NCBI GenBank assembly: GCA_965203055.1
Contig: OZ241863.1
Location: forward strand, 2,720,001 to 2,784,000
Source of the DNA: Spirochaetia bacterium
Lineage (GTDB): Bacteria > Spirochaetota > Spirochaetia > SZUA-6 > Bin103
Reading direction: 5' to 3'
Length of the DNA: 64,000 nt
Position 1 is the stretch's first letter. The number at the start of each line of letters is the position of its first letter. Positions 4,649-37,777 of this stretch are shown piece after piece. The position numbers and the translations under genes are program-made. The notes under the pieces were generated by a model. The model ran no database searches. It was not told the DNA's origin and was given only the letters and a program-made list of their open reading frames with translations.

Positions 4649-4964
4649 GACGCGGCGCGGCCGGCAACGGCCGGCAACCGGGCCGCCGGTCGAGGCGGCA
4701 TACGGGTATGAGGGGGCCGACCGTTGCCGCGGCCCCGGCGCAGCGCGTCTGCCGGGGCCGCGGATCGGCAGTCCGCGTCACCGGGCGGTCGCCGCCAGGC
4801 GCCGGCGCGCCGGGCCGGGCAACCCGGCGCGGCGCCAGGGTCGCGCCGCACGCGCTCCGTCACCACCGACGGATCCACGATCGCCCGCAGCTCGCCGCCG
4901 GCGCACCGATTCCGGAATGGTCTGCCGCCGAGCGGCGTTGGTCACGGCCGGGGCCGACAGGCCG

Positions 4965-5026
4965 CATTCACGCGATTACGTCAAGATGGCGTGAATGGAG
5001 GGCTTTTATTGAGGGTCATTCACGCC
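4965..5026. promoter_or_regulatory. Three CATTCACGC half-sites (operator-like)
   Basis: cattcacgc 4965-4973, gcgtgaatg 4989-4997, cattcacgc 5017-5025, in an AT-rich patch containing a minus-strand TTGACG (4979-4984). Confidence 0.5.
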
Positions 5027-5167
5027 CTTTCGCCGGTCCACTGCGGACCGGGGCCGCCGCCGGGGCGGGCCTCCCTTGTCGGCGCGGCAGGGAGGCGCGA
5101 GCCAATGCGGGCCGCGTCCCGGGCGCCGCCTGCGCCGCGGCGGTTGTGGGGTATGGTAGGGGCAGCG

Positions 5168-6058
5168 ATGGGAGACCCGGTGGCGTTGCGTGATTCTCGT
5201 GCCTTGCCGTTCCGGCAATCGACGATCCCGGCGGTCAACGTAGCCGCCGTTCCCCAACGCAGCCCGCTGCGGTATCCCGGCGGGAAGACGTGGCTGGTTC
5301 CTCATGTTCGCCACTGGCTGCGTGACCGCAGCACGGCGCTTCTGGTCGAGCCGTTCGCCGGCGGGGGCATCGTATCCTTGACCGCGGTGATGGAAGAACT
5401 GGCGGAACGGGCGCACATGGTGGATCTGGATCGCGACGTGGCCGCGTTCTGGCGCGCTGCCTTGGAGCGCAACGCCGAGCTGATCACGAAGATACGTCGT
5501 TTCGTTCCTGACCGGGAGAGCGTCGAGAAGCTGTCACGGCGCGCTCCGGGAGACTTGCTGGAACATGGGTTCCGTACGCTGGTGCTGAACCGCACGCGGC
5601 GCGGCGGCGTACTTGCGCCCGGGGCATCGCTGATCAGGCATGGAGAAAACGAGCAAGGGGTTTCTTCGCGCTGGTATCCGGCCACGCTGGAGAACCGCCT
5701 GCGCGCAATTGCGGCGTATGCGGGCCGATTGACCTTCCACGAAGGTGACGGCGTTCGCGTGTTGCAGGAGACCCTCGCCGAGCGCCGCGGGAAAGCGCGC
5801 TTCTTCGTCGATCCGCCATACACCGGGGCTGGCGGCAAGCGCGCCGGCTCACGCCTGTATGCGCACAACGAGGTAGATCATCAGCGCATCTTCAGCCTGT
5901 TGGCGGATAGCGGAGCCGATTTTCTGATGACCTACGATTGCAGCGACGAAATCGTCGATCTGGTAGGCAGGTTCGATTTCCACGCCGCGCTGGTCGAGAT
6001 GAAGACCGGTCATCACGCTCGCCTTGCCGAGCTGATCATCACCCGGGACCGGCTGTGA
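5168..6058 (+). CDS. DNA adenine methyltransferase (Dam/D12 family), orphan
   Basis: SPLRYPGGKTW, EPFAGGG (motif I), FVDPPY (motif IV). Start uncertain (5153 or 5168); the long N-terminal extension in the ORF track is probably spurious. Confidence 0.9.
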   Translation: MGDPVALRDSRALPFRQSTIPAVNVAAVPQRSPLRYPGGKTWLVPHVRHWLRDRSTALLVEPFAGGGIVSLTAVMEELAERAHMVDLDRDVAAFWRAALERNAELITKIRRFVPDRESVEKLSRRAPGDLLEHGFRTLVLNRTRRGGVLAPGASLIRHGENEQGVSSRWYPATLENRLRAIAAYAGRLTFHEGDGVRVLQETLAERRGKARFFVDPPYTGAGGKRAGSRLYAHNEVDHQRIFSLLADSGADFLMTYDCSDEIVDLVGRFDFHAALVEMKTGHHARLAELIITRDRL

Positions 6059-6093
6059 CTTCAGTGCGGGCCTAACACCGGCGCCCGCGCCGG

Positions 6094-6612
6094 TCAGCCG
6101 CCGAGGTGCTCCACCCGCACTTCTTCGAGCAGGATTCCCCAGGTCTTGCCGGGGTGATCGCGCAGGTCGTGCACCACCAGGTCGAAGGTCACCTGCGTGA
6201 CCCGGTCGGCGCGCACCCGGATGTCGGTCCGCGCCGGGGACAGCTCCAGCGGCACCTCCACGTGCCGGCCGCGCACCACGCCGCGCGCGGCCGAAGCCAG
6301 TACCTCGGCCGCGTCGTAGCGCCCGGCGGGCACCCACTGCCGGGTCAGCTCGACGGTCGCGCCGTCCTGGTAGCGCGTCAGATCGATCTCCTGCGGGTCC
6401 ACGGCGACCGCCAGCCAGCCGGCGTCGTTCCCGGCACCGCGGCGGTGCAGGCGCGCGCCGTCCACGGTGACGACCAGCGCGGTGAAGTCGTCGATCGCCT
6501 CGCGATGGTCGGTGATCAGCACGACCACCTCGCCGCTTTCCTCCTCGCCGGAGGCGGACGCCGGCGCCGGGGCGGCGCTCAGCAGACCCAGCAGCAAGGC
6601 GCCGGCCGCCAT
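6094..6612 (-). CDS. Secreted protein, DUF4382-like
   Basis: Signal peptide MAAGALLLGLLSAAPAPASA, then VVVLITDH...DFTALVVTVDGARLH...IDLTRY...PAGRYD, a pattern typical of DUF4382. Start may be 6660. Confidence 0.65.
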   Translation of the reverse strand: MAAGALLLGLLSAAPAPASASGEEESGEVVVLITDHREAIDDFTALVVTVDGARLHRRGAGNDAGWLAVAVDPQEIDLTRYQDGATVELTRQWVPAGRYDAAEVLASAARGVVRGRHVEVPLELSPARTDIRVRADRVTQVTFDLVVHDLRDHPGKTWGILLEEVRVEHLGG

Positions 6613-6641
6613 GGCGCACCGCCCGCGCCGGGCGCCCGCCC

Positions 6642-7844
6642 TCAGACGCACGCGTGCCATGGCCGCGTCGTGTGGCCGCGGCGGCGCTGCCACCGGTCGC
6701 CGCCGTATACCAGTACGCCATGCCGGGCAGCCGGGCTGCCGCGGGCGCAGAACCAGTCCAGCCCATCGTAGAGCGCGCCGCTGAGCGTGAGTCCCGCCTT
6801 CATCTCCACCGGCAGCAGGCGCGCGCCGTCGTCGATCACCAGATCGACTTCGTGACCGCTGCGGTCGCGCCAGAAATAGAGCGGCGAGCGGACGCCCCGG
6901 TGGGTGAACGCCTTGAGGTATTCGCCCACCACGAAGGTCTCGAATATCGCTCCGCGATTGGCGTGCAGCGCGAGCTGCTCGGGTTCCCGGATGCGCAGCA
7001 GGTTGCACAACAGGCCGGTGTCCAGAAAGTAGAGCTTGGGACTCTTGATCACGCGCTTGGCGAAGTTGCGGTGATGCGGCGGCAGCAGGTGCACCACGAA
7101 CAGCGCCTGCAGCACGGAGAGCCAGGCGCCGGCCGTGGTGTGCGAGACGCCGCAGTCGGAACCGAGCGATGACAGATTCAGAAGCTGCCCGCTGCGGCCC
7201 GCGCAGAGCAGCGCGAAGCGGCGGAAGGTGTCCAGGTCGCCCACGCCGCCAAGCTCGCGCACGTCGCGTTCCACGTAGGTAGTGTAGTAGGAACCGAGCC
7301 AGTCCGCGGCGTCGAGCCGGCGGTCGTGGATGCGCGGGAACAGCCCCTGGTAGAGGACGCCATGCAGATCGAGTCCGGCCGGCGCCGGCGGGTCGCCGGC
7401 AACCGGTTCATGCGGGCGCCATGGGTCGCCGCCCGGCGCCCCGGTCAGCTCCGACAAGCCGAGCGGCAGCAGCACGCACACCGCGGCCCGCCCGGCCAGC
7501 GTCTGGCTTACCGAGCGGGTGAGGGGGAGCTGCTGCGAGCCGGTAAGAACGTAACGGCCGGGTGTCGGGTCCTCGTCCACCAGTGCCTGGACGTAGGACA
7601 GGAGCTCCGGCGCCCGCTGCACTTCGTCCAGAATCACCCCCGAACGGTGCGCCGCCAGCAATCCGCGCGGGTCGTCCAGCGCATGATCCCTGGTGTCCGG
7701 CTCCTCCAGGTTCAGATAGGCATGGGCGGCGAACACCGACTTGGCGAGCGTCGTCTTGCCCGATTGACGCGGCCCGGTCAGAAACAGCGCCGGGAACTGG
7801 CCGGCCAACCGCCGCAGCCGGGCCTCGAGGGTGCGCCGAAACAT
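6642..7844 (-). CDS. AAA_14 ATPase with C-terminal DUF4143 (COG1373-type)
   Basis: LTGPRQSGKTT, ILDEVQRAP, VLTGS, KSPKLYFLDTGL, YFWRDRSGHEVD, PVEMK. Confidence 0.92.
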   Translation of the reverse strand: MFRRTLEARLRRLAGQFPALFLTGPRQSGKTTLAKSVFAAHAYLNLEEPDTRDHALDDPRGLLAAHRSGVILDEVQRAPELLSYVQALVDEDPTPGRYVLTGSQQLPLTRSVSQTLAGRAAVCVLLPLGLSELTGAPGGDPWRPHEPVAGDPPAPAGLDLHGVLYQGLFPRIHDRRLDAADWLGSYYTTYVERDVRELGGVGDLDTFRRFALLCAGRSGQLLNLSSLGSDCGVSHTTAGAWLSVLQALFVVHLLPPHHRNFAKRVIKSPKLYFLDTGLLCNLLRIREPEQLALHANRGAIFETFVVGEYLKAFTHRGVRSPLYFWRDRSGHEVDLVIDDGARLLPVEMKAGLTLSGALYDGLDWFCARGSPAARHGVLVYGGDRWQRRRGHTTRPWHACV

Positions 7845-7850
7845 GCGCTC

Positions 7851-7900
7851 AAGGTACCGCAGCGCAGCCTGAACGGCAAATTGAAAGCACCCCTTTCAAT
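7851..7900 (-). promoter_or_regulatory. Leaderless promoter with abutting palindrome for the ATPase at 6642-7844
   Basis: TTGCCG(7874-79)-N17-TACCTT(7851-56), 6 nt before the ATG; ATTGAAAG-N5-CTTTCAAT at 7880-7900. Confidence 0.6.
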
Positions 7901-8012
7901 CAGCCAACCGACTCCGGGCCGGTGGACGGCTGCGGCGCGCAGGGCGTGGATCCGGTTCGCCAAGCGACCGGTCCCGGCGAGCAGCGCTGCCGGCGTCCCG
8001 GACAGGTCGATT

Positions 8013-8288
8013 TCAAGCGCGCCGACGGAGCATGAAGACTACCGACTGCGCTTCGAGGAGGTTGCGCGGCCATTCGAGTCCACGCGCCCGAGCTTCCTCT
8101 ATCAACTGGTCGAGAAACCCCAACGCGTGCTCATACAGAGTCGCCTCGTCCGCATTATCGTGCGGCTTGGGGTGGTGCGTAAAATCGTATGCCGTCGCGA
8201 ACATTCTCACCCCGAACGGAGGGTAATGTTCGATCGAAATCCTTATGAGCAGGGCGGCGATCAGCCCCATGCGCCCTCCTGCTCCCAT
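8013..8288 (-). pseudogene. Protein fragment, possibly an N-terminal piece of an McrB-like GTPase
   Basis: Protein-like, lower-GC stretch (HYPPF...ADEATLYEHALGFLDQLIEEA...LEAQSVV) bounded by unrelated GC-rich DNA; family assignment from recollection only. Confidence 0.35.
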
Positions 8289-8349
8289 GAGATTCCTTAT
8301 TCACGCGGATTCGCAGATTCACCAGGGAATTGCCGTTCTCCTCGCCTGC

Positions 8350-9302
8350 CACTGCGGAAGCCGGCGCCGGTGCTGGACCCGGAGGCGCGGCGGGAGCTGG
8401 TGGAGCAGGCGTCCGGCAAGAGCAGCCGGGAGGTGATGCAGTTGCTGGCCGAGGTAGACCCGGAGCTGGCGGCGGCGGCGGATCGGGTGCGGCCTCTGGG
8501 CGGCGGGCGTTGGGAACTCAAGGCGGTGATCGACGATGAGTGCCGGCGCGGCTTGGAGCGGCTGAAGGGCCTCCTGTCCCACGTCGATCCGCACCTGACG
8601 ATGGGGCAGCTCATGGGGCGGCTGGTGCGGGAAGGGCTCGACCGTCACGACCCGGCCCGGCCGCCGCGCGGGCGGCGCGCGGCGCCGGCCAAAGGGGCCG
8701 AGCAAACTTCGGCGCCGAAGACGCAGGCGGCCTCGGCTCGCGGCGCCGCCTCGGCAGCGAAGCAAGAGGCCGGCGCGGACAGCGCCGCTCCTTCGGCGGC
8801 GAAGGTATCGGCTCAGGCGGCGGCGCAGCCGGGAGACGAAGCCGCTTCGCCGCTGCAGGCGAACCGCGGCCCGGACCGCCCGGACACTTCGGCGGTGAAA
8901 CCGGCAGTGAAACCGGCGGGCGACACCACTTCGGCGCCGAAGACGCGGCGCCCCGGCCGGCAGGCTGCACCGGCGGGCGCGGCGCGGGCTGCGCGGCCGG
9001 CGCGGACCGAAACTTCGGCAGCGAAGGCCGGCGGCGTGACCGGCCGCGCCATCCCGGCGGCGGTCAAGCGCGAGGTCTGGCGGCGCGACCGGGGCCGCTG
9101 CCGCTACGTGGACCGCACCAGCGGGCGCCGTTGCGGCTCCCAACACCTGCTGCAGATCGATCACGTCGTGCCGTATGCCCGCGGCGGCGCCGCCGAGCCG
9201 AACAATCTCCGCCTGCTGTGCGCCGCCCATCACCGCTACCGCCACGCCGGCGCCCGATTCGGGCGCCCCGGCGAGGATCGTCAGGCGCCCGTAGACCGGT
9301 GA
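8350..9302 (+). pseudogene. HNH endonuclease gene (DUF222-like long-N-terminus type), 5'-truncated
   Basis: C-terminal RAIPAAVKREVWRRDRGRC...C...LQIDHVVPYARGG..EPNNLRLLCAAHH. The upstream helical region begins abruptly at about 8350 with no clear start. Confidence 0.8.
8706..9026 (+). repeat. Array of seven 15-bp repeats (consensus ACTTCGGCGSCGAAG) inside the HNH gene
   Basis: Copies start at 8706, 8748, 8790, 8844, 8886, 8928, 9012; spacers 27, 27, 39, 27, 27, 69 nt. Confidence 0.75.
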
Positions 9303-9497
9303 TCAAGATCGCCGAGAAACGTCATCCTGCGCTAGGACTTGGGCTTGGCCGCCAAGCGGTCTGACGCTCACCTACATTTTGGGAAATGCGCCGTGAGTGA
9401 GTGCGGGCTGGCTGATGGGGTCGATGGTCAGCTTGGCGGGCGCATGGTACCATGCGCCCGGCGCGAGGCCAGCAGCCGGCCGGCGCGGAGGGAATCT

Positions 9498-11494
9498 TAT
9501 TGTTGTTGAGTAAAGCGTTGAAGTTATCGCTGTTGATGGCCGCCGGCATCGCCGCGCTGATGGCGTGCGAGCCGGCGGCGCGGCCGCCCGCCATGGCCGC
9601 CGCCCCAGCCCAAGGGGGAGGGGAGCCTCCGAGCGAGCCGACGCCAACTCCGCAGCCGGCAGAGAAGAGGGAGAAGAGCTGGACGATCGGGACGGCTGAC
9701 TTTGGCAATGATGAACTGAACCTGGTGGGCGAAGTGTCCAACCGTGCATCGTTTGACTGGGAGCCGATCACCGCCGGCGCCGAAGTGAGCGTTTCGATTG
9801 GCGGGCATGACCTGCCGTTCACCAGCACGGCGGCAAAGCCGGTCTTCGCGTCCGATATCTCCGGCGCCGAGTGGAAGGTTGCCGCGGAAGTCCGTGCGGG
9901 AGCGATCGTGCTCGTGCTCACGGCCCCGGATCAGTCGGGCGGCGGCGCTGTCGAGTTGGTCACGATCACGAACCCGGGCAGCGGCTACACCTCGCCCCCG
10001 ACCGTCAGCTTTTCCGCCCCGCCGCCCGGCGGCGCCGCGGCAACCGGCACCGCGGTGGGGCCCGATCGCGTCGCCTCCGTGACGGTCGACACCGCCGGCA
10101 GCGGCTACACGTCCCTCCCGACCGTCAGCTTTTCCGCCCCGCCATCCGGCGGCGCCACGGCAACCGGCACCGCGGCGGCAGGGCCCGGCAGCGTCGCTTC
10201 CGTGGACGTTGTCACCCCCGGCAGCGGCTACACCTCGGTCCCAACCGTCACCTTCTCGGCAGCGCCTGCAGGCGGCACCACGGCAACCGGCACCGCGGTG
10301 GCAGGGCCCGGCAGCGTCGCTTCCGTGGACGTTGTCACCCCCGGCAGCGGCTACACGTCCCTCCCGACCGTCAGCTTTTCCGCCCCGCCGTCCGGCGGCG
10401 CCACGGCAACCGGCACCGCGGTGGCAGGGCCCGGCAGCGTCGCTTCCGTGGACGTTGTCACCGCCGGCAGCGGCTACACCTCGGTCCCAACCGTCACCTT
10501 CTCGGCAGCGCCTGCAGGCGGCACCACGGCAACCGGCACCGTGGTGGGGAACGGTCGAGTCCATTCGGTGACGGTCACGAACGGGGGTACCGGCTACGTC
10601 CCTAGCACGGCTACCGTTACGATTTCGGCGCCGCCCTCCGGCGGCACCAGGGCAATGGCCCAAGTGATAGCCCTAGGCGTCGGTGTCATCCAGGGAGTGG
10701 AGGTCAGGAACCGGGGGAGCGGCTACACCTCGGTCCCGACCGTTACGTTTGGCGCACCGTCCAGCGGCACCACGGCCACCGGCACCGCGGCGTTGCGCTA
10801 CGGTGTCGGGTTGGTAACGATCGCCACCGCCGGCGGCGGCTACACCTCGGTCCCAACCGTCACCTTTTCGGCAGCGCCGAGCGGCGGCACCACGGCCGCC
10901 GGCACCGCGGTGCTGCAATACGGTGTCGGGTCGGTAGACGTCACCGGCGGCGGGAGCGGCTACACGTCGGCCCCGACCGTTACCTTTTCGGCCCCGCCAA
11001 GCGGCACCACGGCGACCGGCACCGCGGCGTTGCGCTACGGCGTCGGGTCGGTAACGATCGCCACCGCCGGCGGCGGCTACACCTCGGTCCCAACCGTCAC
11101 CTTTTCGGCAGCGCCGAGCGGCGGCACCACGGCCGCCGGCACCGCGGTGTTGCAATACGGTGTCGGGTCGGTAGACGTCACCGGCGGCGGGAGCGGCTAC
11201 ACGTCGGCCCCGACCGTTACCTTTTCGGCCCCGCCAAGCGGCGGCGGCGCCACCACCGCAGCCGGCACCGCGGTGTTGCACTCCACCGTCACGGCAGTGC
11301 GGATCACGAACCAGGGGAGCGGCTACGCGTCGGCCCCAACCGTTACGCTTTCCGCGCCGACCGGCGGGAGCGGCACCACGGCGACCGCCGAGGCAACGCT
11401 GCGTCCACCCGGCAACGACCAGTACCAAAACCTGTATTGGGCGCGCCATACGCTGAACGGCAAGAAGCTTCTGGTTAAGATCGTGAGCAACTGA
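9498..11494 (+). CDS. Putative surface lipoprotein with 12 GSGYTSxPTV repeats
   Basis: KALKLSLLMAAGIAALMA-C lipobox; 12 repeats of about 40 aa; near-identical DNA units offset by 246 bp (first half) and 237 bp (second half). Start uncertain (TTG near 9498). Confidence 0.8.
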
Positions 11495-11508
11495 ACTCGC
11501 GCGGCTGG

Positions 11509-12741
11509 CTACGGTCCCAGCGCGCCGATGGGAATGACGCCGATGCCGTCGCCGCGCACGTAGCCGTAGCCGCCCGCGACGATGACCGCCAGGGCCGCGG
11601 GAGCCCGGCTGCGGGCCGGGTCCACCCGCCTGGCGAAGCGCAGCAGAGTAGCCGCCGCGGCGTCGATCATTCCCGCTCCCAGCTTGACCTCGAATGCGGC
11701 CCAGGTTCCGTCCGCGGCCTGCACGATGGCGTCCACCTCCAGGCCGGTGTTGTCACGGTACTGCAGCACTTCGGCGTCACGATGCTGGGCGTAGACGCGC
11801 AGGTCGCGGACGACCAGCGACTCGAACAGGAACCCGAACCAGGCAAGGTCCCGCAGCAGCCGATCAGGGTCGGCGCGGAGCGCCGCGACCGCGAGAGAGG
11901 GGTCGACGAAGTGCCGCTTGGGGGCGCCCCTGAGCCGCGACCGCGAGCGCAGGTGCGGCGCCCAGGCCGGTTGATCCTCGACGATCATGAGCCGTTCGAG
12001 CGCCGTCAGGTAGGCATCCGCGGTGTGGTTGTTCAAGTCGGCGGCCATGGTCGAAGCCGCGGCGTAGGTAGCGACGTTGCGGGCGAACGAGCGGAGCAGG
12101 TCGCCGACCTTGGCGGGGTCGCGCCGCGTCTCGTCGACGCGGCCGACGTCGACGCGGCGGATCTCGTCGAGGTAGGCGCGATTGGCCTGCAGCGCCTGGT
12201 TGACGGAGCGTTGCAGATTCCCCGGCCAACCGCCGCGGCAGACCTGCCCGGCAAGTGCCTCGATGGAGAGGGCCGACTCCGCGCTGCGCGGCGCCGCTCC
12301 GGCCAGGAGTGCGCGCAGGGAAACCGCGCCGGAGGAGCGGCCGGTTTCGAACAGGGACATGGGGCGCAGCCGGAGCCGCGTCAGGCGTCCCGCGCCGGTA
12401 TGCCGGGTGACGTCGTCGGCCGGCACCGCGGAGCCGGTGAGGATGAACTGGCCGGGCCGGGCGCGGTCGTCGACGGCGCGGCGCACGTGATTCCAGATCG
12501 CCGGTTCGGTCTGCCACTCGTCGATCAGGCGCGGCGCGGCTCCCGCCAGCACCAGGGCCGGATCGATCGCTACGGCGCGCCGGGCGTTGGCGTCGACGTC
12601 GAGCAGCACTTCGCTGGCCGCCGCCCGCCGGGCGGTGGCCGTCTTGCCGCACGCCTTGGGGCCTTCGATGACCACCGCCCCGGCAGCGCCGAGCCGCTGC
12701 CGCAGCTCGTGGTCCGCAAGGCGCGCCCGGTAGCGCGCCAT
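11509..12741 (-). CDS. AAA_14 ATPase with DUF4143
   Basis: IEGPKACGKT, LIDEWQ, FILTGSA, HTGAGR, PKRHFVDPS, YRDNTGLEVDAI, FEVKLG. Confidence 0.92.
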   Translation of the reverse strand: MARYRARLADHELRQRLGAAGAVVIEGPKACGKTATARRAAASEVLLDVDANARRAVAIDPALVLAGAAPRLIDEWQTEPAIWNHVRRAVDDRARPGQFILTGSAVPADDVTRHTGAGRLTRLRLRPMSLFETGRSSGAVSLRALLAGAAPRSAESALSIEALAGQVCRGGWPGNLQRSVNQALQANRAYLDEIRRVDVGRVDETRRDPAKVGDLLRSFARNVATYAAASTMAADLNNHTADAYLTALERLMIVEDQPAWAPHLRSRSRLRGAPKRHFVDPSLAVAALRADPDRLLRDLAWFGFLFESLVVRDLRVYAQHRDAEVLQYRDNTGLEVDAIVQAADGTWAAFEVKLGAGMIDAAAATLLRFARRVDPARSRAPAALAVIVAGGYGYVRGDGIGVIPIGALGP

Positions 12742-12752
12742 CACCGCTCCAG

Positions 12753-12837
12753 TAACATCATTGCAATGTCTCCGGTATCATCATCGCAACGATGATGATA
12801 ACAACATTGCAATGTATTCAATAGCAGAATTGCAACG
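12753..12837. repeat. 4 x 23-bp iteron/operator-like array with palindromic TTGCAA cores
   Basis: Units start at 12753, 12776, 12799, 12822; cores ttgcaa/tcgcaa/ttgcaa/ttgcaa at 12761, 12784, 12807, 12830. Confidence 0.8.
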
Positions 12838-12867
12838 CTCGTCGCGCTGCCGCTGCCGCCGGTTACG

Positions 12868-13656
12868 TTACCAGCGCGGAATCCCGCCGAGCAGCAGCTT
12901 CCGTTGCGGCGTGCCGTGGTCCCGCATGGCGGTCATCTTCGGCCCGTCGAAGGTCTCGCGGGACTTCATCCAGGCGTTCTGGTAGCACATCAGGCAGACG
13001 CGGCGGTTGGCGGGCGAGTGGTTGGCTGCCCCGCGGTGATAGATCCAGCCGTTGAACAGCACCGCCTGGCCCGGCTTGGCGAACACGTACAACTCGTCGG
13101 GGAACACCGCGGCGCTGTCCTTGGGCGGCCGGAAGAGCGCCCGGTGGCTGCCGGGGACGATGACGATCGGGCCGTTGTCGATGGTCAGCTCATCCAGGTA
13201 GTAGCCGCAGTTGATCTGCCCCGGGATCGAACCGAACGGGGTGCCGTCAGGGTCTTGCGGCCACGGCCCGTCGCGGTGCCAGTTCTGTTCCGGCGTACCG
13301 GGCCGGGTCACGCGGCCGGTGGCGCTGTGAAGCTGCACCGCGTTGCCGAGGATGGCCGTCACGCGGGTGAGGACCGGCGGGGTGTCGAGCAGGAACGCGA
13401 AGCGGTCGTCCTCCTCCAGGAGCCGGCTGAAGAAGCTCCCGTACGGCCCCGGGTTGGGCTCTCCTCCCCAGCCCACGGTGGCGCGGGAATGGGCGTCGTC
13501 CATGGCATCGCGGAGCGTCTCGACCTGCTCCGCGGTGAGCGCATCGTCGATGACGAGGTATCCCCATTTCTGGAAGAAACGAACCTCCCGCTCCAGCTCG
13601 GGCGTGAGATCGGGGTTCAGGCGCTGCGGAACGATCGAGAAGTCGGCTGCGGCCAT
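12868..13656 (-). CDS. Phytanoyl-CoA dioxygenase (PhyH) family 2OG-Fe(II) oxygenase
   Basis: FFQKWGYLVI, WHRDG (HxD), NGPIVIVPGSH, IYHRGAAN..R. Confidence 0.9.
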   Translation of the reverse strand: MAAADFSIVPQRLNPDLTPELEREVRFFQKWGYLVIDDALTAEQVETLRDAMDDAHSRATVGWGGEPNPGPYGSFFSRLLEEDDRFAFLLDTPPVLTRVTAILGNAVQLHSATGRVTRPGTPEQNWHRDGPWPQDPDGTPFGSIPGQINCGYYLDELTIDNGPIVIVPGSHRALFRPPKDSAAVFPDELYVFAKPGQAVLFNGWIYHRGAANHSPANRRVCLMCYQNAWMKSRETFDGPKMTAMRDHGTPQRKLLLGGIPRW

Positions 13657-13750
13657 CGCATTCTCCGGGTCGTGGTTTCAATGATTAGGGCGCTTGCCCG
13701 GCCCGGTGGTCAAGCCTCGGGGAGTCCGCCATCATGGCGCTGAAGACGCG

Positions 13751-15316
13751 ATGATCGACCAACCGATGATCGAACGGCGCTTCAGCGACCTCTGGGGGCA
13801 GTTGCAGGGCAAGAAGCCGCATCTGCCGCACTTCCTGGCGGAGATACACCTGCAGGGGATACGCGGGATCGACGACCTGCGCGTGGTGCTGGACTATCCG
13901 GTCAGCGTGATCGCCGGCGGCAACGCCAGCGGCAAGTCGACCGTGCTGTTCGCGGCGGCGTGCGCCTATCGGGTGCCGGGCGCCGGGGTCAGGGACTTCG
14001 TGCCGTCCACGCTGTTTCCCGACTACCGCCCGCGGCACGGCGGACGCGAGGACGAGAAGCGCGCGGTCACCATCGAGTTCGACTACGCCACCCCGGACGG
14101 CCGCCGTTCCATGCGCTGGCGGCGCGCCAAAGGCTGGAACCGCAGCTTCCTGGGGCGCAAGAACGCCAGCCAGCCGGAGCGTCCGGTCTACCTGCGGACG
14201 CTCAGCAACCTCAGCAACCCGTCGGAGGCGCGCGGCGTGCTCAGCATGTCGCAGCGGAGCTCGCCGGCGCAGGAGAGGCCGCTGACCGCCTCGCAGATCG
14301 AGTTCGCGCAACAGCTTCTGCCGTTCCGCTACGCCGAGGTGGTCGATCTGTCCAGCGGCAACAAGAACCTGCTGTTTGCCGCCCAGGAGCGCGGCCCGGC
14401 CTACTCGGAGCTGCACATGGCGGCCGGCGAGCGCGCCATCCTGCGGTTGGCGCAGGAGATCGCGCAGCGCAGCGGGGTGCTGGTGTTGATCGACGAAGTG
14501 GAGGCCGGGCTGCACCCCTGGGTCCAGCAACTGCTGATGCTGCAGTTGCAACAGCTCGCGCTGCGCAACGACCTGCAGATCATCGTCACCACCCACAGCC
14601 CGGTGGTGCTGGACTCGGTGCCGGCCAACGGGCGCATCTTCCTGGACCGCGGCGAGAGCGGGCGGGTAACGGTGCAGCAGGCGCACGTCGACGTGGTGCA
14701 GGACGCGCTGTACGGCCGCTCGCGGGAGGTGCTCAACCTGCTGTGCGAGGACGACGCGGCGCAGGCGGTGGTGCAGGGGGTGCTGGATCACGTGGTGCCG
14801 AAGCGGCGCATCAGAGGGGATTCGGTGCGCATTGGCCGCGATACCGGCGCCGACGAGTTTCCCGCGCACGCCGCGGCGTTCCGCAAGTTCGGGCAGATCG
14901 CCAACTTCGTCTTCATCCTCGACGGCGATCAGCGCGGCAGCGGCATCGACGAGCGCATCCGGGAGCAGGCCGGACGCGCGGTGCCGACCCTGTTCCTGCC
15001 CGGCCGCGAGGCGCCGGAGGCGTGGGTATGGGAACGGCTGCGGCAGGCCGCCGGGCCGATGGCCGTCGGGCTGAGCGTCGATCCGGGGGAGCTGGCCAGC
15101 CGGCTGCACCGGCTCGACGCGGTGTACGACACCGCCTCCGACCGGCCCGCGGCGATCGCCAAGGCGAAGCTGCGCGGCCTGGGCGAGGCCCTGCGCCGGG
15201 AGGCGGCGGACATCTGCCGCACCGTCGCCCGGCTGGAAGCGGAACGTCCCGAAAGCGATCTGCAGCCGTTCGCGGAGGGGCTCGAGACCGTGCTGCTGCA
15301 ATGGCGCGCCGGATGA
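13751..15316 (+). CDS. ABC-type ATPase with C-terminal TOPRIM-like region (OLD-like)
   Basis: IAGGNASGKST, MAAGE signature-like motif, LIDEVEAGLHP, VTTHSP; C-terminal LLCEDD and ILDGD. Confidence 0.75.
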   Translation: MIDQPMIERRFSDLWGQLQGKKPHLPHFLAEIHLQGIRGIDDLRVVLDYPVSVIAGGNASGKSTVLFAAACAYRVPGAGVRDFVPSTLFPDYRPRHGGREDEKRAVTIEFDYATPDGRRSMRWRRAKGWNRSFLGRKNASQPERPVYLRTLSNLSNPSEARGVLSMSQRSSPAQERPLTASQIEFAQQLLPFRYAEVVDLSSGNKNLLFAAQERGPAYSELHMAAGERAILRLAQEIAQRSGVLVLIDEVEAGLHPWVQQLLMLQLQQLALRNDLQIIVTTHSPVVLDSVPANGRIFLDRGESGRVTVQQAHVDVVQDALYGRSREVLNLLCEDDAAQAVVQGVLDHVVPKRRIRGDSVRIGRDTGADEFPAHAAAFRKFGQIANFVFILDGDQRGSGIDERIREQAGRAVPTLFLPGREAPEAWVWERLRQAAGPMAVGLSVDPGELASRLHRLDAVYDTASDRPAAIAKAKLRGLGEALRREAADICRTVARLEAERPESDLQPFAEGLETVLLQWRAG

Positions 15317-36825: not shown

Positions 36826-37671
36826 TCAGTCGGACTTGCGGCGCAGCAAGGCCTCGAGTTCGGCCAGACGCGCTTCTGCGGCTTGGCGGGCGGCCGCCTC
36901 CCGGCGGCGGGCGGCGGCTTCCCGTTGGGCGCGGGTTTCGGCGGCCTGGCGGGCGGCGGCCTCCTGTTGGACGCGGGTCTCTGCGGCCTGGCGGGCGGCC
37001 GCTTCCCGGCGGCGGGCGACCGCTTCCTGCTCTGCGCGAGACTCCGCCTCCCGGCGTTGTTCGTCGGTCTCCGCCAAGTCCGGCAGCTCCTTCCCCGTCT
37101 GCGGATCGTAGAACCTCAGCCGGCGCCCTGCCACCCGCAACTCCAGTCCCAGCACCTCGCTCCGCGCCGCCAACGTCCCGTCCGCCAACCTCCACCCCGA
37201 CAGCGGCTCGTACTCTCCCTCCACCAACTCCAACCCCTGCAGCGGCGGCTCCAGGTAGTTCCGCGTCGGATCGTACTGCCAGTACTCCCCCACCCCCAGC
37301 CGGCGATACAACTCCCGCTTCCTGTCCCGATCGTCCCGCCACGTCGCCGGCGACGTGATCTCCAGCACGAAGTCCGGCGCCTTCTCCTCCTCCCACAGCC
37401 GGTACGACGCGCGTTCTTCTTTGCGATTGCGCGCCCCGAACACCACGAACACGTCCGGCGCCACCCTTGCCCGCGTCCCTTCCTCGTAGTAGATCAGCAG
37501 GTTGCCGGAGGCGAACGCCTCCGGGCGGTTGCGGAAGTAGTGCCGGAGGCAGCTCACGGCGTACGTGAGAGGTATCAGTTGCGACTCGCTTTCCGCCATC
37601 GGCTTGCCGTCCGAGCTGGGGTAGTCTATCGCTGCCGCCGGCGCCGGCGGAGCGCTGAGTGAACTTGCCAT
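36826..37671 (-). CDS. Uma2 (DUF820) family endonuclease with repetitive coiled-coil tail
   Basis: YPSSDGKPMAES, VAPDVFVV, PDFVLEITS, GVGEYWQYDP; EAAARQAAE repeats; TGcTAAGCT extended -10 and GGAGG SD upstream. Confidence 0.92.
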   Translation of the reverse strand: MASSLSAPPAPAAAIDYPSSDGKPMAESESQLIPLTYAVSCLRHYFRNRPEAFASGNLLIYYEEGTRARVAPDVFVVFGARNRKEERASYRLWEEEKAPDFVLEITSPATWRDDRDRKRELYRRLGVGEYWQYDPTRNYLEPPLQGLELVEGEYEPLSGWRLADGTLAARSEVLGLELRVAGRRLRFYDPQTGKELPDLAETDEQRREAESRAEQEAVARRREAAARQAAETRVQQEAAARQAAETRAQREAAARRREAAARQAAEARLAELEALLRRKSD

Positions 37672-37777
37672 ACGACCACGCCTCCAGACGCCGGCCAGCT
37701 TAGCACGCCGCGCGCCGGCTCGACAGCCTCGCAGTCGTTCAGGGGCGCACTTCCAATGTGTTGGTACCGGTCCCGCG

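What the first reader, a model, noticed from the sequence alone, without database searches (positions are those of the whole stretch)
9950..11410. Mirror-ordered 12-repeat lipoprotein: possible nested out-and-back stalk
Seen: 12 GSGYTSxPTV repeats. Repeats 2 and 4 (SLPTVSFSAPPSGG) mirror 11 and 9 (SAPTVTFSAPPSG); repeats 3 and 5 (SVPTVTFSAAPAGG) mirror 10 and 8 (SVPTVTFSAAPSGG); 1 and 12 are both ITNxGSGY; 6 and 7 form a divergent centre. First-half linkers are AGPGSVASV and second-half linkers are LxYGVGSV. Each half expanded as its own dimer unit (246 bp and 237 bp) to an equal count, and a short unique C-terminal tail follows. Inference: repeat i pairs with repeat 13-i, giving domains inserted inside one another, with the tail completing the N-terminal base domain. 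Similar motifs are recalled from tailed-phage structural proteins, so this may be a domesticated module used as a surface stalk.
Basis: partly seen in the sequence, partly recalled or inferred. Interest (0 to 1): 0.78.

Follow-up and report, generated by a model that had tools for sequence, protein, structure and literature searches.

The report
Lipoprotein with a folded-back repeat stalk
A spirochaete-type lipoprotein gene carries twelve 40-residue repeats, of a kind also found in phage particle proteins, that most likely run out and back as a hairpin stalk rooted in one base domain, an unusual repeat architecture that is so far supported only by computation.

Summary
The gene is real: window 9452/9500..11494 (+) has a lipobox, a Pro/Thr tether, a ~90-aa beta domain, 12 repeats of 39-43 aa and a 28-aa tail. 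The repeat strings and the 246-bp and 237-bp dimer duplications are as described. The sequence "mirror order" is not significant: 6.9% of 720 permutations do as well.

The out-and-back idea gains independent support.
- Of 112 family members, 103 have an even repeat count.
- The longest inter-repeat linker sits at junction N/2 in 22.75 of 36 cluster representatives, against 7.48 expected; 0 of 200,000 shuffles reach this.
- Paralogues gain or lose repeats in both arms.
- In the AlphaFold2 model of a 6-repeat paralogue (pLDDT 84) only the central junction is broken; the other junctions are continuous 17-20-residue strands.
- The N-domain and tail dock with weak support: 0.58 against a best control of 0.01.
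- One homologue has no repeats.

I could not read model coordinates, so i:(13-i) contacts are inferred. The repeat matches phage structural PHROGs but no Pfam family and no PDB entry. The family is multi-copy in three Spirochaetia MAG chromosomes. Function is unknown; I favour a length-variable envelope stalk. Verdict: partly supported, new variant of a known kind.

The parts
9452..11494 (+). Longest ORF of the gene (680 aa, P0001). The probable true start is TTG 9500 (or 9503/9506), giving about 664 aa.
   Evidence: ORF and translation. GGAGGG at 9487-9492 lies 7 nt before the in-frame TTG at 9500; the ORF of orthologue L001 begins at the TTG equivalent to window 9506.
9500..9568 (+). Lipoprotein signal peptide: Lys-containing n-region, hydrophobic core, and lipobox L-M-A-C (Cys codon 9566-9568).
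   Evidence: Read from the sequence. A lipobox of this type ([LMA][MTLA][AG]C) is present in most full-length homologues listed. No signal-peptide predictor was available.
9569..9667 (+). Pro/Thr/Ala/Gly-rich tether between the lipidated Cys and the base domain.
   Evidence: Composition seen. AlphaFold2 pLDDT is below 50 for residues 27-64. The region is poorly conserved in alignment A1.
9668..9934 (+). N-terminal beta-rich base domain (aa ~73-161), which defines the family.
   Evidence: AlphaFold2 strands 74-157 with block pLDDT 83-94. Invariant W77, R98, G138-A139, W141 and others in 28 sequences. Only 45 hits at E<=0.001 among 1.84 billion cluster representatives. No Pfam or NCBIfam match.
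9959..10696 (+). Repeats 1-6, the proposed outward arm. Units: 9959-10078, 10079-10201, 10202-10324, 10325-10447, 10448-10567, 10568-10696.
   Evidence: coordinates; identities; PHROG matches over this stretch.
9973..10549 (+). Recent tandem duplication of a two-repeat unit in the first arm (246 bp x 2.4, 90% matches).
   Evidence: In one search, repeats 2 and 4 are 93% identical at DNA level and repeats 3 and 5 are 89%.
10664..10711 (+). Central junction 6|7, the longest inter-repeat linker of the array and the proposed hairpin tip.
   Evidence: Linker lengths are [10,11,11,11,10,12,10,10,10,10,10]. The same position holds the longest linker in 22.75 of 36 family cluster representatives. In the 6-repeat model the central junction is the only broken one. 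In the 12-repeat model this region has pLDDT below 50, so here it is inferred by homology.
10697..11422 (+). Repeats 7-12, the proposed return arm. Units: 10697-10813, 10814-10933, 10934-11050, 11051-11170, 11171-11296, 11297-11422.
10715..11242 (+). Recent tandem duplication of a two-repeat unit in the second arm (237 bp x 2.2, 95% matches).
   Evidence: In one search, repeats 8 and 10 are 99% identical at DNA level and repeats 9 and 11 are 83%.
11408..11494 (+). Conserved C-terminal tail (aa 653-680: helix 657-668 plus strand 672-677) followed by the stop codon. It is proposed to dock back on the base domain.
   Evidence: AlphaFold2 block pLDDT 78-89. Invariant N660, L661, A664, L668, G670 and L673. 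The tail HMM hits all family members. Docking test against the N-domain: weak support, 0.58 against a best control of 0.01.

Best explanation
The gene encodes a lipid-anchored envelope protein of a small, multi-copy family known so far only from high-GC Spirochaetia-type genomes.

Architecture, in order along the chain:
- a signal peptide with lipobox Cys;
- a disordered Pro/Thr tether;
- a beta-rich base domain;
- an array of 12 repeats of about 40 residues;
- a short helix-plus-strand tail.

Proposed fold:
- The array is best read as an insertion into the base unit that runs out for six repeats, turns at the 6|7 junction and runs back for six.
- The third strand of each repeat continues straight into the first strand of the next. 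Neighbouring repeats are therefore collinear, and the packing partner of repeat i is repeat 13-i from the returning arm.
- The result is a rod of six two-repeat rungs. Its tip is the central hairpin, and its two ends are clamped by the base domain plus tail.

How length evolves: repeats are gained or lost in both arms, or in pairs at the tip. In this gene one two-repeat duplication occurred in each arm. Paralogues have 1 to 7 rungs.

Shown: the gene anatomy, family membership, even counts, the central special junction, balanced indels, and likeness of the repeat to phage virion proteins.

Inferred:
- the i:(13-i) contacts;
- the docking of the tail on the base;
- a rise of about 3 nm per rung, estimated from strand lengths;
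- the role. I take it to be a length-variable stalk or spacer on the cell envelope whose variable tip is the exposed, possibly ligand- or phage-facing, end.
For: Anatomy.

Family:
- The N-domain finds only 45 cluster representatives.
- 18 loci lie in three 'Spirochaetia bacterium' MAG chromosomes, 11 of them in one genome, and further tandem copies lie in the flanks.
- L001 is the orthologue: 96.9% DNA identity over window 9411-12835, also with 12 repeats.

Even counts:
- 103 of 112 members.
- 46 of 55 distinct (75%-identity cluster, count) combinations.
- 25 of 26 intact genes in the genome loci.

Symmetry:
- The longest linker is at junction N/2 in 22.75 of 36 cluster representatives (ties weighted), against 7.48 expected. 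0 of 200,000 within-protein shuffles reach this.
- By N, hits/representatives are: 8/11 (N=4), 6/10 (N=6), 3.5/8 (N=8), 2/3 (N=10), 2/2 (N=12), 1.25/2 (N=14).

Balanced change:
- L008 lacks one unit in each arm relative to the 12-repeat L007 gene.
- The 14-repeat L007 gene has one extra unit in each arm.
- L004 has two extra adjacent units at the centre.
- L009 has near-identical runs in both arms (units 1-4 and 7-9).
- This gene has one dimer duplication per arm.

Structure:
- AlphaFold2 of the 6-repeat paralogue L013 gave pLDDT 84.2.
- Junctions 1|2, 2|3, 4|5 and 5|6 are continuous strands: 131-147, 171-190, 247-266 and 285-301.
- Only junction 3|4 is broken (208-215 / 218-226).

Conservation in nine 6-repeat members is lowest at the centre: 0.62, 0.44, 0.38, 0.47, 0.62, 0.59 for repeats 1-6; tail 0.64.

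Base plus tail:
- ESMFold2 docking of residues 70-169 against 645-680 returned the verdict weak support. The score was 0.58 and the best of 3 controls 0.01.
- The mark was reached by 116 of 157 solved complexes and 2 of 215 mismatched pairs. At 0.60 or under it was reached by only 18 of the 157, and by both mismatches that passed.
- Runs agree in at least 88% of contacts, and partner pLDDT is at least 67.
- No like complex is solved.
- P0156 joins the N-domain to the tail with no repeat (tail HMM E=3.6e-15).

Phage likeness:
- 16 PHROG families match, the best being phrog_460 at 3.3e-47.
- 21 BFVD matches at E<=0.001.
- tblastn hits the S-CAM9 neck/Hc2 gene.
Against: - I never saw coordinates or a distance map, so no contact between repeat i and 13-i was observed.
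- The palindromic secondary structure is largely what any repeat array would give. Only the central break is informative, and it could be a bulge.
- pTM is low: 0.35 for the 12-repeat model and 0.48 for the 6-repeat model. That fits a long rod, but it fits loosely joined modules as well.
- In the 12-repeat model of this very protein the centre has pLDDT below 50, and the junctions show 1-3-residue breaks.
- The AlphaFold2 alignments are shallow (28 and 16 rows).
- The docking verdict is only 'weak support' and used my own alignment.
- Nine of 112 members have odd counts, including one intact gene with 11 repeats in a complete chromosome.
- L005 has its special junction at 4|6.
- Fourteen of the 36 cluster representatives score 0 in the central-linker test (22 score above 0; tie-weighted total 22.75), mostly where divergent repeats were mis-parsed.
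- Family members share ancestry, so the shuffle test overstates independence.
- P0156 is a 92-aa fragment of unknown completeness. The two other zero-repeat candidates have no significant tail match: P0153 E=0.2, P0157 not significant.
- No evidence bears on location (surface or periplasm) or on any ligand.
Confidence: 0.55

Rival explanations
1. Ordinary beads-on-a-string. Each repeat, or each adjacent pair of repeats, is an autonomous small beta module, the array is linear, and the tail merely caps the last repeat. Even counts would then arise because the unit of duplication is two repeats.
For: - The recent duplications in this gene are two-repeat units.
- pTM is low in both models.
- BFVD matches align locally with TM 0.1-0.2 and rmsd 30-45 A, as for flexible chains.
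- Odd-count members exist: 9 of 112.
- A rough parse of arrays in 87 non-family proteins gave 92 even and 54 odd arrays.
Against: - Single-repeat gains and losses occur, yet totals stay even. L008 lacks one unit in each arm, the 14-repeat L007 gene has one extra in each arm, and L009 has runs of 4 and 3 near-identical units.
- This model gives no reason for the special linker to sit at N/2 in members with 4, 6, 8, 10 and 12 repeats.
- The 6-repeat model shows no period-2 alternation of junction types.
- The N-domain/tail docking test beat its controls: 0.58 against a best control of 0.01, verdict weak support. The mark was reached by 116 of 157 solved complexes and 2 of 215 mismatched pairs, but at 0.60 or under by only 18 of the 157 and by both mismatches that passed; runs agree in at least 88% of contacts and partner pLDDT is at least 67.
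- The parse demonstrably misses divergent units. For example, P0072 reads 2+11 where its 1128-aa relative P0076 reads 14.
Confidence: 0.22
2. A phage-fibre-like homo-oligomer. Several chains intertwine along the repeat array, and the conserved tail acts as an oligomerisation or registration element, as in phage fibres.
For: - The repeat matches PHROGs annotated as tail fibre and baseplate wedge.
- The tail is short, highly conserved and C-terminal.
- Monomer models have low pTM.
Against: - Monomer pLDDT is high for the 6-repeat member (84.2), which is not typical of obligate intertwined fibres.
- Parity and central symmetry are not predicted by this model.
- The tail docks on the protein's own N-domain in the only test run (0.58 against a best control of 0.01, verdict weak support). 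The mark was reached by 116 of 157 solved complexes and 2 of 215 mismatched pairs, but at 0.60 or under by only 18 of the 157 and by both mismatches that passed; runs agree in at least 88% of contacts and partner pLDDT is at least 67.
Confidence: 0.08
3. A virion or prophage structural gene rather than a cellular lipoprotein.
For: PHROG and BFVD matches to head-closure, tail-fibre and baseplate proteins.
Against: - Of the 22 ORFs of window 45-24444 scanned with Pfam, none matched a phage structural, terminase, portal or integrase family; nor did any of the 11 ORFs scanned in L001.
- The protein has a lipobox and belongs to a family of at least 26 chromosomal paralogues, often in tandem.
- The PHROG matches cover only the repeats, not the N-domain or the tail.
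Confidence: 0.03

Closest known systems
Phage virion proteins carrying the same ~40-aa G-S-G-Y repeat: PHROG 460 'head closure Hc2', 5342 and 17885 'tail fiber', 701 and 19630 'virion structural protein', 708 and 32294 'baseplate wedge'. An example is the Synechococcus phage S-CAM9 neck/Hc2 gene.
   Same: The repeat unit itself. HMM matches reach 3.3e-47 with up to 9 stretches. There are 21 BFVD structural matches at E<=0.001. tblastn gives 37% identity over 141 aa.
   Different: - Those proteins have other terminal domains, for example P22 gp10-like PF11134.
- They carry no lipobox and lack this N-domain and tail.
- Whether their arrays also fold back is unknown. My parse of non-family arrays was unreliable.
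- No member of either group has a solved structure.
Cyanobacterial RNA polymerase Si3 insertion (repeated SBHM domains in the trigger loop).
   Same: A long array of repeated beta modules is inserted in a loop of a host domain. [quoted passage not shown] In both cases the two ends of the array return to the host domain.
   Different: - No fold likeness was shown. The Si3 crystal structure 8emb_B appears only at E=0.17, TM 0.13.
- Si3 is cytoplasmic, irregular (8 SBHMs, some of them contiguous) and functions in transcription.
- The array here is regular, symmetric and variable in copy number.
Streptococcal antigen I/II family adhesins (A-region / P-region stalk).
   Same: An out-and-back stalk. 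[quoted passage not shown] It is a cell-surface anchored protein built from repeats.
   Different: - The arms there are of two different kinds, an alpha-helix and a polyproline helix, and they carry a globular head. Here both arms are the same beta repeat and the tip is only a hairpin.
- Anchoring there is by sortase, here by lipid.
- There is no sequence relation.
Repeat-bearing spirochaetal and other surface lipoproteins with tandem Ig-like (Big) domains. This comparison is recalled, not tested against any named protein.
   Same: A lipobox, a tether, repeated beta modules and multi-gene families.
   Different: No Big or Ig Pfam family matches. The units here are about 40 aa, half an Ig domain, and the counts are even and symmetric.

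Membership tests
Bacterial lipoproteins (signal peptidase II substrates) | N-terminal signal peptide ending in a lipobox with an invariant Cys | tested here: met
   A Lys-containing n-region, a hydrophobic core and L-M-A-C (Cys39 of the long ORF) are seen. Equivalent lipoboxes occur in most full-length homologues. This was judged by eye; no predictor was available.
Bacterial lipoproteins (signal peptidase II substrates) | Acylation of the Cys and membrane anchoring | not testable with these tools
   Needs biochemistry.
This lipoprotein family (N-domain + G-S-G-Y repeats + conserved tail) | N-domain with the S-G-A-E-W motif and a tail with the N-L-Y-W-A-R motif, flanking the array | tested here: met
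   Invariant columns in 28 sequences. N-domain and tail HMMs both hit 86 proteins, including P0001. The orthologue L001 is 98% identical in the N-domain.
Phage G-S-G-Y-repeat structural proteins (PHROG 460, 5342, 701 and others) | Significant match to the family profile | tested here: met
   16 PHROG families at E<=0.1, the best at 3.3e-47. The matches lie within residues 160-652, that is the repeats only.
Phage G-S-G-Y-repeat structural proteins (PHROG 460, 5342, 701 and others) | Encoded in a phage genome among virion genes | tested here: not met
   None of the 22 ORFs scanned with Pfam in window 45-24444, and none of the 11 scanned in L001, matched a phage structural family. The neighbours are DUF4143 ATPases, an HNH protein, a methyltransferase and PhyH.
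Out-and-back stalk adhesins (antigen I/II type) | Two repeat regions that associate lengthwise, so that both chain ends lie at the base | tested here: inconclusive
   Even counts, central symmetry and balanced indels. The central-only break in the 6-repeat model. N-domain/tail docking with weak support: 0.58 against a best control of 0.01; the mark was reached by 116 of 157 solved complexes and 2 of 215 mismatched pairs, but at 0.60 or under by only 18 of the 157 and by both mismatches that passed; runs agree in at least 88% of contacts and partner pLDDT is at least 67. No contacts were seen.
Out-and-back stalk adhesins (antigen I/II type) | Alpha-helical and polyproline arms with a globular head at the tip | tested here: not met
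   Both arms are the same beta repeat, and the tip is a linker of 12 residues.
Nested SBHM arrays (RNA polymerase Si3) | SBHM fold of the repeat | tested here: not met
   Foldseek hit 8emb_B at E=0.17, TM 0.13. No Pfam match.
Ig-like / Big tandem-domain surface proteins | Match to a Big, Ig, FN3, PKD or similar domain profile | tested here: not met
   Pfam returned only a sub-threshold DUF3370 match (E=0.13). NCBIfam returned nothing. The best Ig-like Foldseek hits have E above 5.

The most novel reading that the evidence does not exclude
The 40-residue G-S-G-Y repeat may define a so far undescribed class of repeat architecture: a self-nesting beta rod.
- Every globular rung would be assembled from two repeats that are far apart in sequence.
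- The array would be an insertion clamped at both ends by one host domain.
- Length would evolve by compensating gains and losses in the two arms.

If the same holds for the thousands of phage head, neck, baseplate and fibre proteins that carry this repeat, it would explain a large unannotated part of phage virion proteins.

In these spirochaete-type bacteria the multi-copy family has 1-7 rungs and variable tips, and at least 8 of 19 loci examined place a family gene near a predicted AAA-ATPase/nuclease gene. The family could therefore be a length-graded envelope spike layer that interacts with phages, as a shield or a decoy.
Probability: 0.25. Interest if true: 0.8.

Novelty: new variant of a known kind. 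Interest (0 to 1): 0.62.

Why it matters
Repeat proteins are normally read as tandem strings. A regular array in which repeat i is completed by repeat N+1-i would be a rare and clean case of nested assembly. It also carries a visible evolutionary signature: even counts, a fixed centre, and compensating indels. That signature can be searched for elsewhere.

The repeat has no Pfam family and no solved structure, yet it occurs in more than 3,000 proteins at E<=1e-5 in one capped search, including phage virion proteins. One structure would therefore annotate a great deal.

For the organism, the finding defines a large, length-variable lipoprotein family that is probably a major feature of the cell envelope.

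Tried and rejected
**Searches that found nothing**
- Pfam, NCBIfam and PADLOC gave no family for the protein.
- The PDB was searched by sequence, by a two-repeat profile A4 and by the whole-protein profile A3. Nothing credible came back; the best was E=0.026 to a Mediator subunit, taken as a compositional match.
- Foldseek against the PDB gave 0 matches at E<=0.001 for both models.
- ESM Atlas was asked twice and was unavailable both times.
- A literature search for 'GSGY' + repeat + phage returned 2 papers, both irrelevant. This one search is my only basis for saying I found no description of the repeat. I did not search for the family under other names.

**Tests that failed or were set aside**
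- Sequence mirror similarity is not significant.
- Parity of arrays in 87 non-family proteins gave 92 even and 54 odd. I set this aside because the family-trained HMM skips divergent units.
- Zero-repeat candidates P0153 and P0157: hhalign aligned only the N-domain. The tail HMM was not significant (E=0.2 and 2.2 in a set of 158 proteins). Only P0156 counts.
- Search for a conserved partner gene: clustering 800 flanking ORFs from 19 loci found no non-family gene shared by more than 5 loci.
- Promoter and terminator scans of 9200-11700 found none.

**Readings rejected**
- A prophage structural gene.
- A spurious high-GC ORF, given 112 relatives with conserved ends.

- Reading model coordinates or PAE.
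- Scanning viral contigs or metagenome contigs, which were closed.
Full report
**1. What is at the coordinates**

The finding lies inside one ORF, window 9452..11494 on the + strand (680 aa, P0001).
- Residues 17-39 read as a lipoprotein signal peptide ending in L-M-A-C.
- A GGAGGG at 9487-9492 lies 7 nt before an in-frame TTG at 9500.
- In the orthologous locus L001 the ORF begins at the equivalent TTG. The true start is therefore probably 9500-9506, not the ATG at 9452.

After the Cys come, in order:
- a tether of about 33 residues rich in Pro, Thr, Ala and Gly, which is low-confidence in AlphaFold2;
- a beta-rich domain (aa ~73-161);
- twelve repeats (aa 170-657, nt 9959-11422);
- a conserved tail of about 28 residues.

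**2. The observation**

- Repeats 2/4 and 3/5 alternate, as do 9/11 and 8/10.
- The two halves have different linkers.
- Tandem Repeats Finder reports a 246-bp unit x2.4 at 9973-10549 (90% matches) and a 237-bp unit x2.2 at 10715-11242 (95%).

The claimed mirror order is not more than chance.
- Mean DNA identity of pairs (i, 13-i) is 71.2%, against 70.0% for (i, i+6).
- 6.9% of the 720 pairings of the halves do as well by DNA and 14.7% by protein.
- Repeat 7 belongs with 9 and 11, so each half is a plain alternation produced by two-repeat duplications. Only repeat 6 is truly divergent.

**3. What the repeat and the protein are related to**

- Pfam and NCBIfam find nothing.
- PHROGs gives 16 families of phage head-closure, tail-fibre, baseplate-wedge and 'virion structural' proteins. 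The best is phrog_460 at 3.3e-47, and all matches lie within the repeats.
- Foldseek of the model against BFVD gives 21 matches at E<=0.001 to cyanophage and uncultured-phage proteins. TM is only 0.1-0.2, which means local likeness only.
- tblastn against phage genomes finds the S-CAM9 neck/Hc2 gene.

No solved structure contains the repeat. This holds by sequence, by profile and by fold.

The gene is not in a prophage.
- Its neighbours are two DUF4143 AAA ATPases, an HNH protein, a D12 methyltransferase, an AAA_21 ATPase, STAND-type ATPases and PhyH.
- L001 has a similar but rearranged setting.

**4. The family**

- The N-domain alone finds only 45 cluster representatives among 1.84 billion.
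- A scan of one genome per species found 18 loci, all in three 'Spirochaetia bacterium' MAG chromosomes, with 11 in one of them.
- The flanks hold further copies, often in tandem. One example is three in a row in L007.
- L001 is 96.9% identical to the window over 9411-12835 only (the gene plus the downstream ATPase). It also has 12 repeats.
- All members share the lipobox, the N-domain and the tail. Only the number of repeats differs, from 0 to 14.

**5. Tests of the out-and-back idea**

(a) Parity.
- 103 of 112 members have an even count: 0 (1), 2 (3), 4 (31), 6 (34), 8 (25), 10 (3), 12 (4), 14 (2).
- Odd counts are 1 (2), 3 (1), 5 (2), 7 (3), 11 (1).
- Counting each 75%-identity cluster once per count gives 46 even and 9 odd.
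- In the genome loci, 25 of 26 intact genes are even.
- Four of the nine odd forms sit in a cluster with an even sibling. Both one-repeat forms lack a signal peptide, and one of them (P0215) also has a garbled tail.

(b) A fixed centre.
- I measured the linker between the third strand of each repeat and the first strand of the next.
- The longest one lies at junction N/2 in 22.75 of 36 cluster representatives (ties weighted), against 7.48 expected. No shuffle out of 200,000 reaches this.
- It holds for N = 4, 6, 8, 10 and 12. In this gene it is junction 6|7.
- Most misses are parsing failures at divergent repeats. L005 is a real exception (4|6).
- Relatedness inflates this test, so the independent events matter more than the count.

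(c) Balanced change, from unit-level alignment of close paralogues.
- L008 lacks one unit in each arm relative to the 12-repeat L007 gene.
- The 14-repeat L007 gene has one extra unit in each arm.
- L004 has two extra adjacent units at the centre.
- L009 has runs of near-identical units in both arms.
- This gene has one two-repeat duplication per arm.
- Unbalanced cases are L005 (two lost from one arm) and the 11-repeat L007 gene.

(d) Structure.
- AlphaFold2 of P0001 gave pLDDT 65 and pTM 0.35. The base, repeats 1-2, repeats 11-12 and the tail are confident, but the centre is not.
- A clean alignment of 6-repeat members gave, for L013, pLDDT 84.2 and pTM 0.48.
- In that model junctions 1|2, 2|3, 4|5 and 5|6 are continuous strands of 17-20 residues. 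Only junction 3|4 is broken into two strands.
- If that is right, neighbouring repeats are collinear and cannot pack on each other, the chain reverses only at the centre, and the packing partner of each repeat must come from the other arm.
- I could not read coordinates, so this step is inference.

(e) The ends.
- Docking residues 70-169 against 645-680 returned the verdict weak support: score 0.58, best of 3 controls 0.01.
- The mark was reached by 116 of 157 solved complexes and 2 of 215 mismatched pairs. At 0.60 or under it was reached by only 18 of the 157, and by both mismatches that passed.
- Runs agree in at least 88% of contacts, and partner pLDDT is at least 67.
- P0156 joins the N-domain directly to the tail (tail HMM 3.6e-15). 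It is a 92-aa fragment, and two further candidates are not significant.

(f) Conservation in nine 6-repeat members falls towards the centre: 0.62, 0.44, 0.38, 0.47, 0.62, 0.59. The tail is at 0.64 and the N-domain at 0.54. This is as expected for a conserved base and a free tip.

**6. Best reading and rivals**

I take the protein to be a lipid-anchored, tethered base domain from which a hairpin of repeats projects.
- This gene would have six two-repeat rungs, with the 6|7 junction as the tip.
- The family would span 1-7 rungs.
- Confidence in the topology is about 0.55.

The main rival is a linear string of modules with two-repeat duplication units, at about 0.22. It explains the low pTM and the odd members. 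It does not explain single-unit balanced indels, the fixed centre or the junction pattern.

A fibre-like oligomer (about 0.08) was not tested. A virion gene is unlikely.

Function is not shown by anything here.
- I favour a length-variable envelope stalk or spacer with an exposed, diversifying tip.
- Surface or periplasmic location is open.

**7. Comparison with what is known**

- In mechanism it resembles the antigen I/II stalk, where two repeat regions associate to project a head (PMC3178794, passages).
- It also resembles the cyanobacterial Si3 insertion, where repeated SBHMs are not in simple tandem and the chain folds over itself (PMC10895346, listing and passages).
- It is a member of neither. 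The arms are identical beta repeats, there is no head, and no fold likeness to SBHM was found.
- The repeat is shared with phage virion proteins, but the N-domain, the tail and the lipobox are not.

I rate it a new variant of a known kind, with interest 0.62.

Noticed in passing
window 4724-7844 and 11509-15316: The gene sits among defence-like genes. These are a D12 methyltransferase matching PADLOC PD-Lambda-5_B (1.3e-42), two DUF4143/AAA_14 ATPases matching candidate PDC-S01 (5.3e-104 at 6642-7844 on the - strand; 2.6e-68 at 11509-12744 on the - strand), and an AAA_21 ATPase matching HEC-04 (4.4e-39 at 13694-15316).
   Followed up: partly
L014:9490-11073, L015:10075-11907, L017:9442-11076 and 12640-14619, L008:12657-14792, L001:9851-12498, L006:12709-14148: Family genes recur next to predicted AAA-ATPase plus PD-(D/E)XK genes (PF09820+PF08011, or AAA_14+DUF4143). 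This holds for at least 8 of 19 loci, counting the window. Whether it reflects linkage or just shared variable regions is open.
   Followed up: partly
L007:5652-12521; also L002, L004, L012, L013, L015, L016: Paralogues lie in tandem clusters, for example three consecutive genes with 14, 12 and 11 repeats in L007. The N-domain pattern scan therefore undercounts the family.
   Followed up: partly
L010:7800-9855: One paralogue has its N-domain and its repeat array in different reading frames: ORFs 7800-8639 and 8344-9855, with 11-12 repeats. This is a frameshift, a pseudogene or an assembly error.
   Followed up: no
window 9411-12835 compared with L001 7762-11177: Only the lipoprotein gene and the downstream DUF4143 ATPase gene are shared with the closest genome (96.9% identity). 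Both flanks differ, and PhyH lies on the other side in L001. The block sits in a rearranging region.
   Followed up: partly
window 37065-37718 (- strand) compared with L001 2585-3235: A separate 661-nt stretch is 86% identical between the window and the L001 flank, far from the gene. It may be a repeated or mobile element.
   Followed up: no
window 7326-9302 (+): A long ORF whose only recognisable part is a C-terminal HNH nuclease motif (aa 602-640, 6.4e-08). The rest is low-complexity and rich in Ala, Arg and Pro, so the real gene is probably much shorter.
   Followed up: no
L002/L003-type paralogues (repeat 2) and L014-L018-type paralogues (repeats 2, 4-6): Some subfamilies carry Cys-containing insertions inside particular repeats: a Cys-Cys pair in repeat 2 of the 6-repeat group, and several Cys in the central repeats of the 8-repeat group. 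This hints at disulfides or decorated rungs.
   Followed up: no
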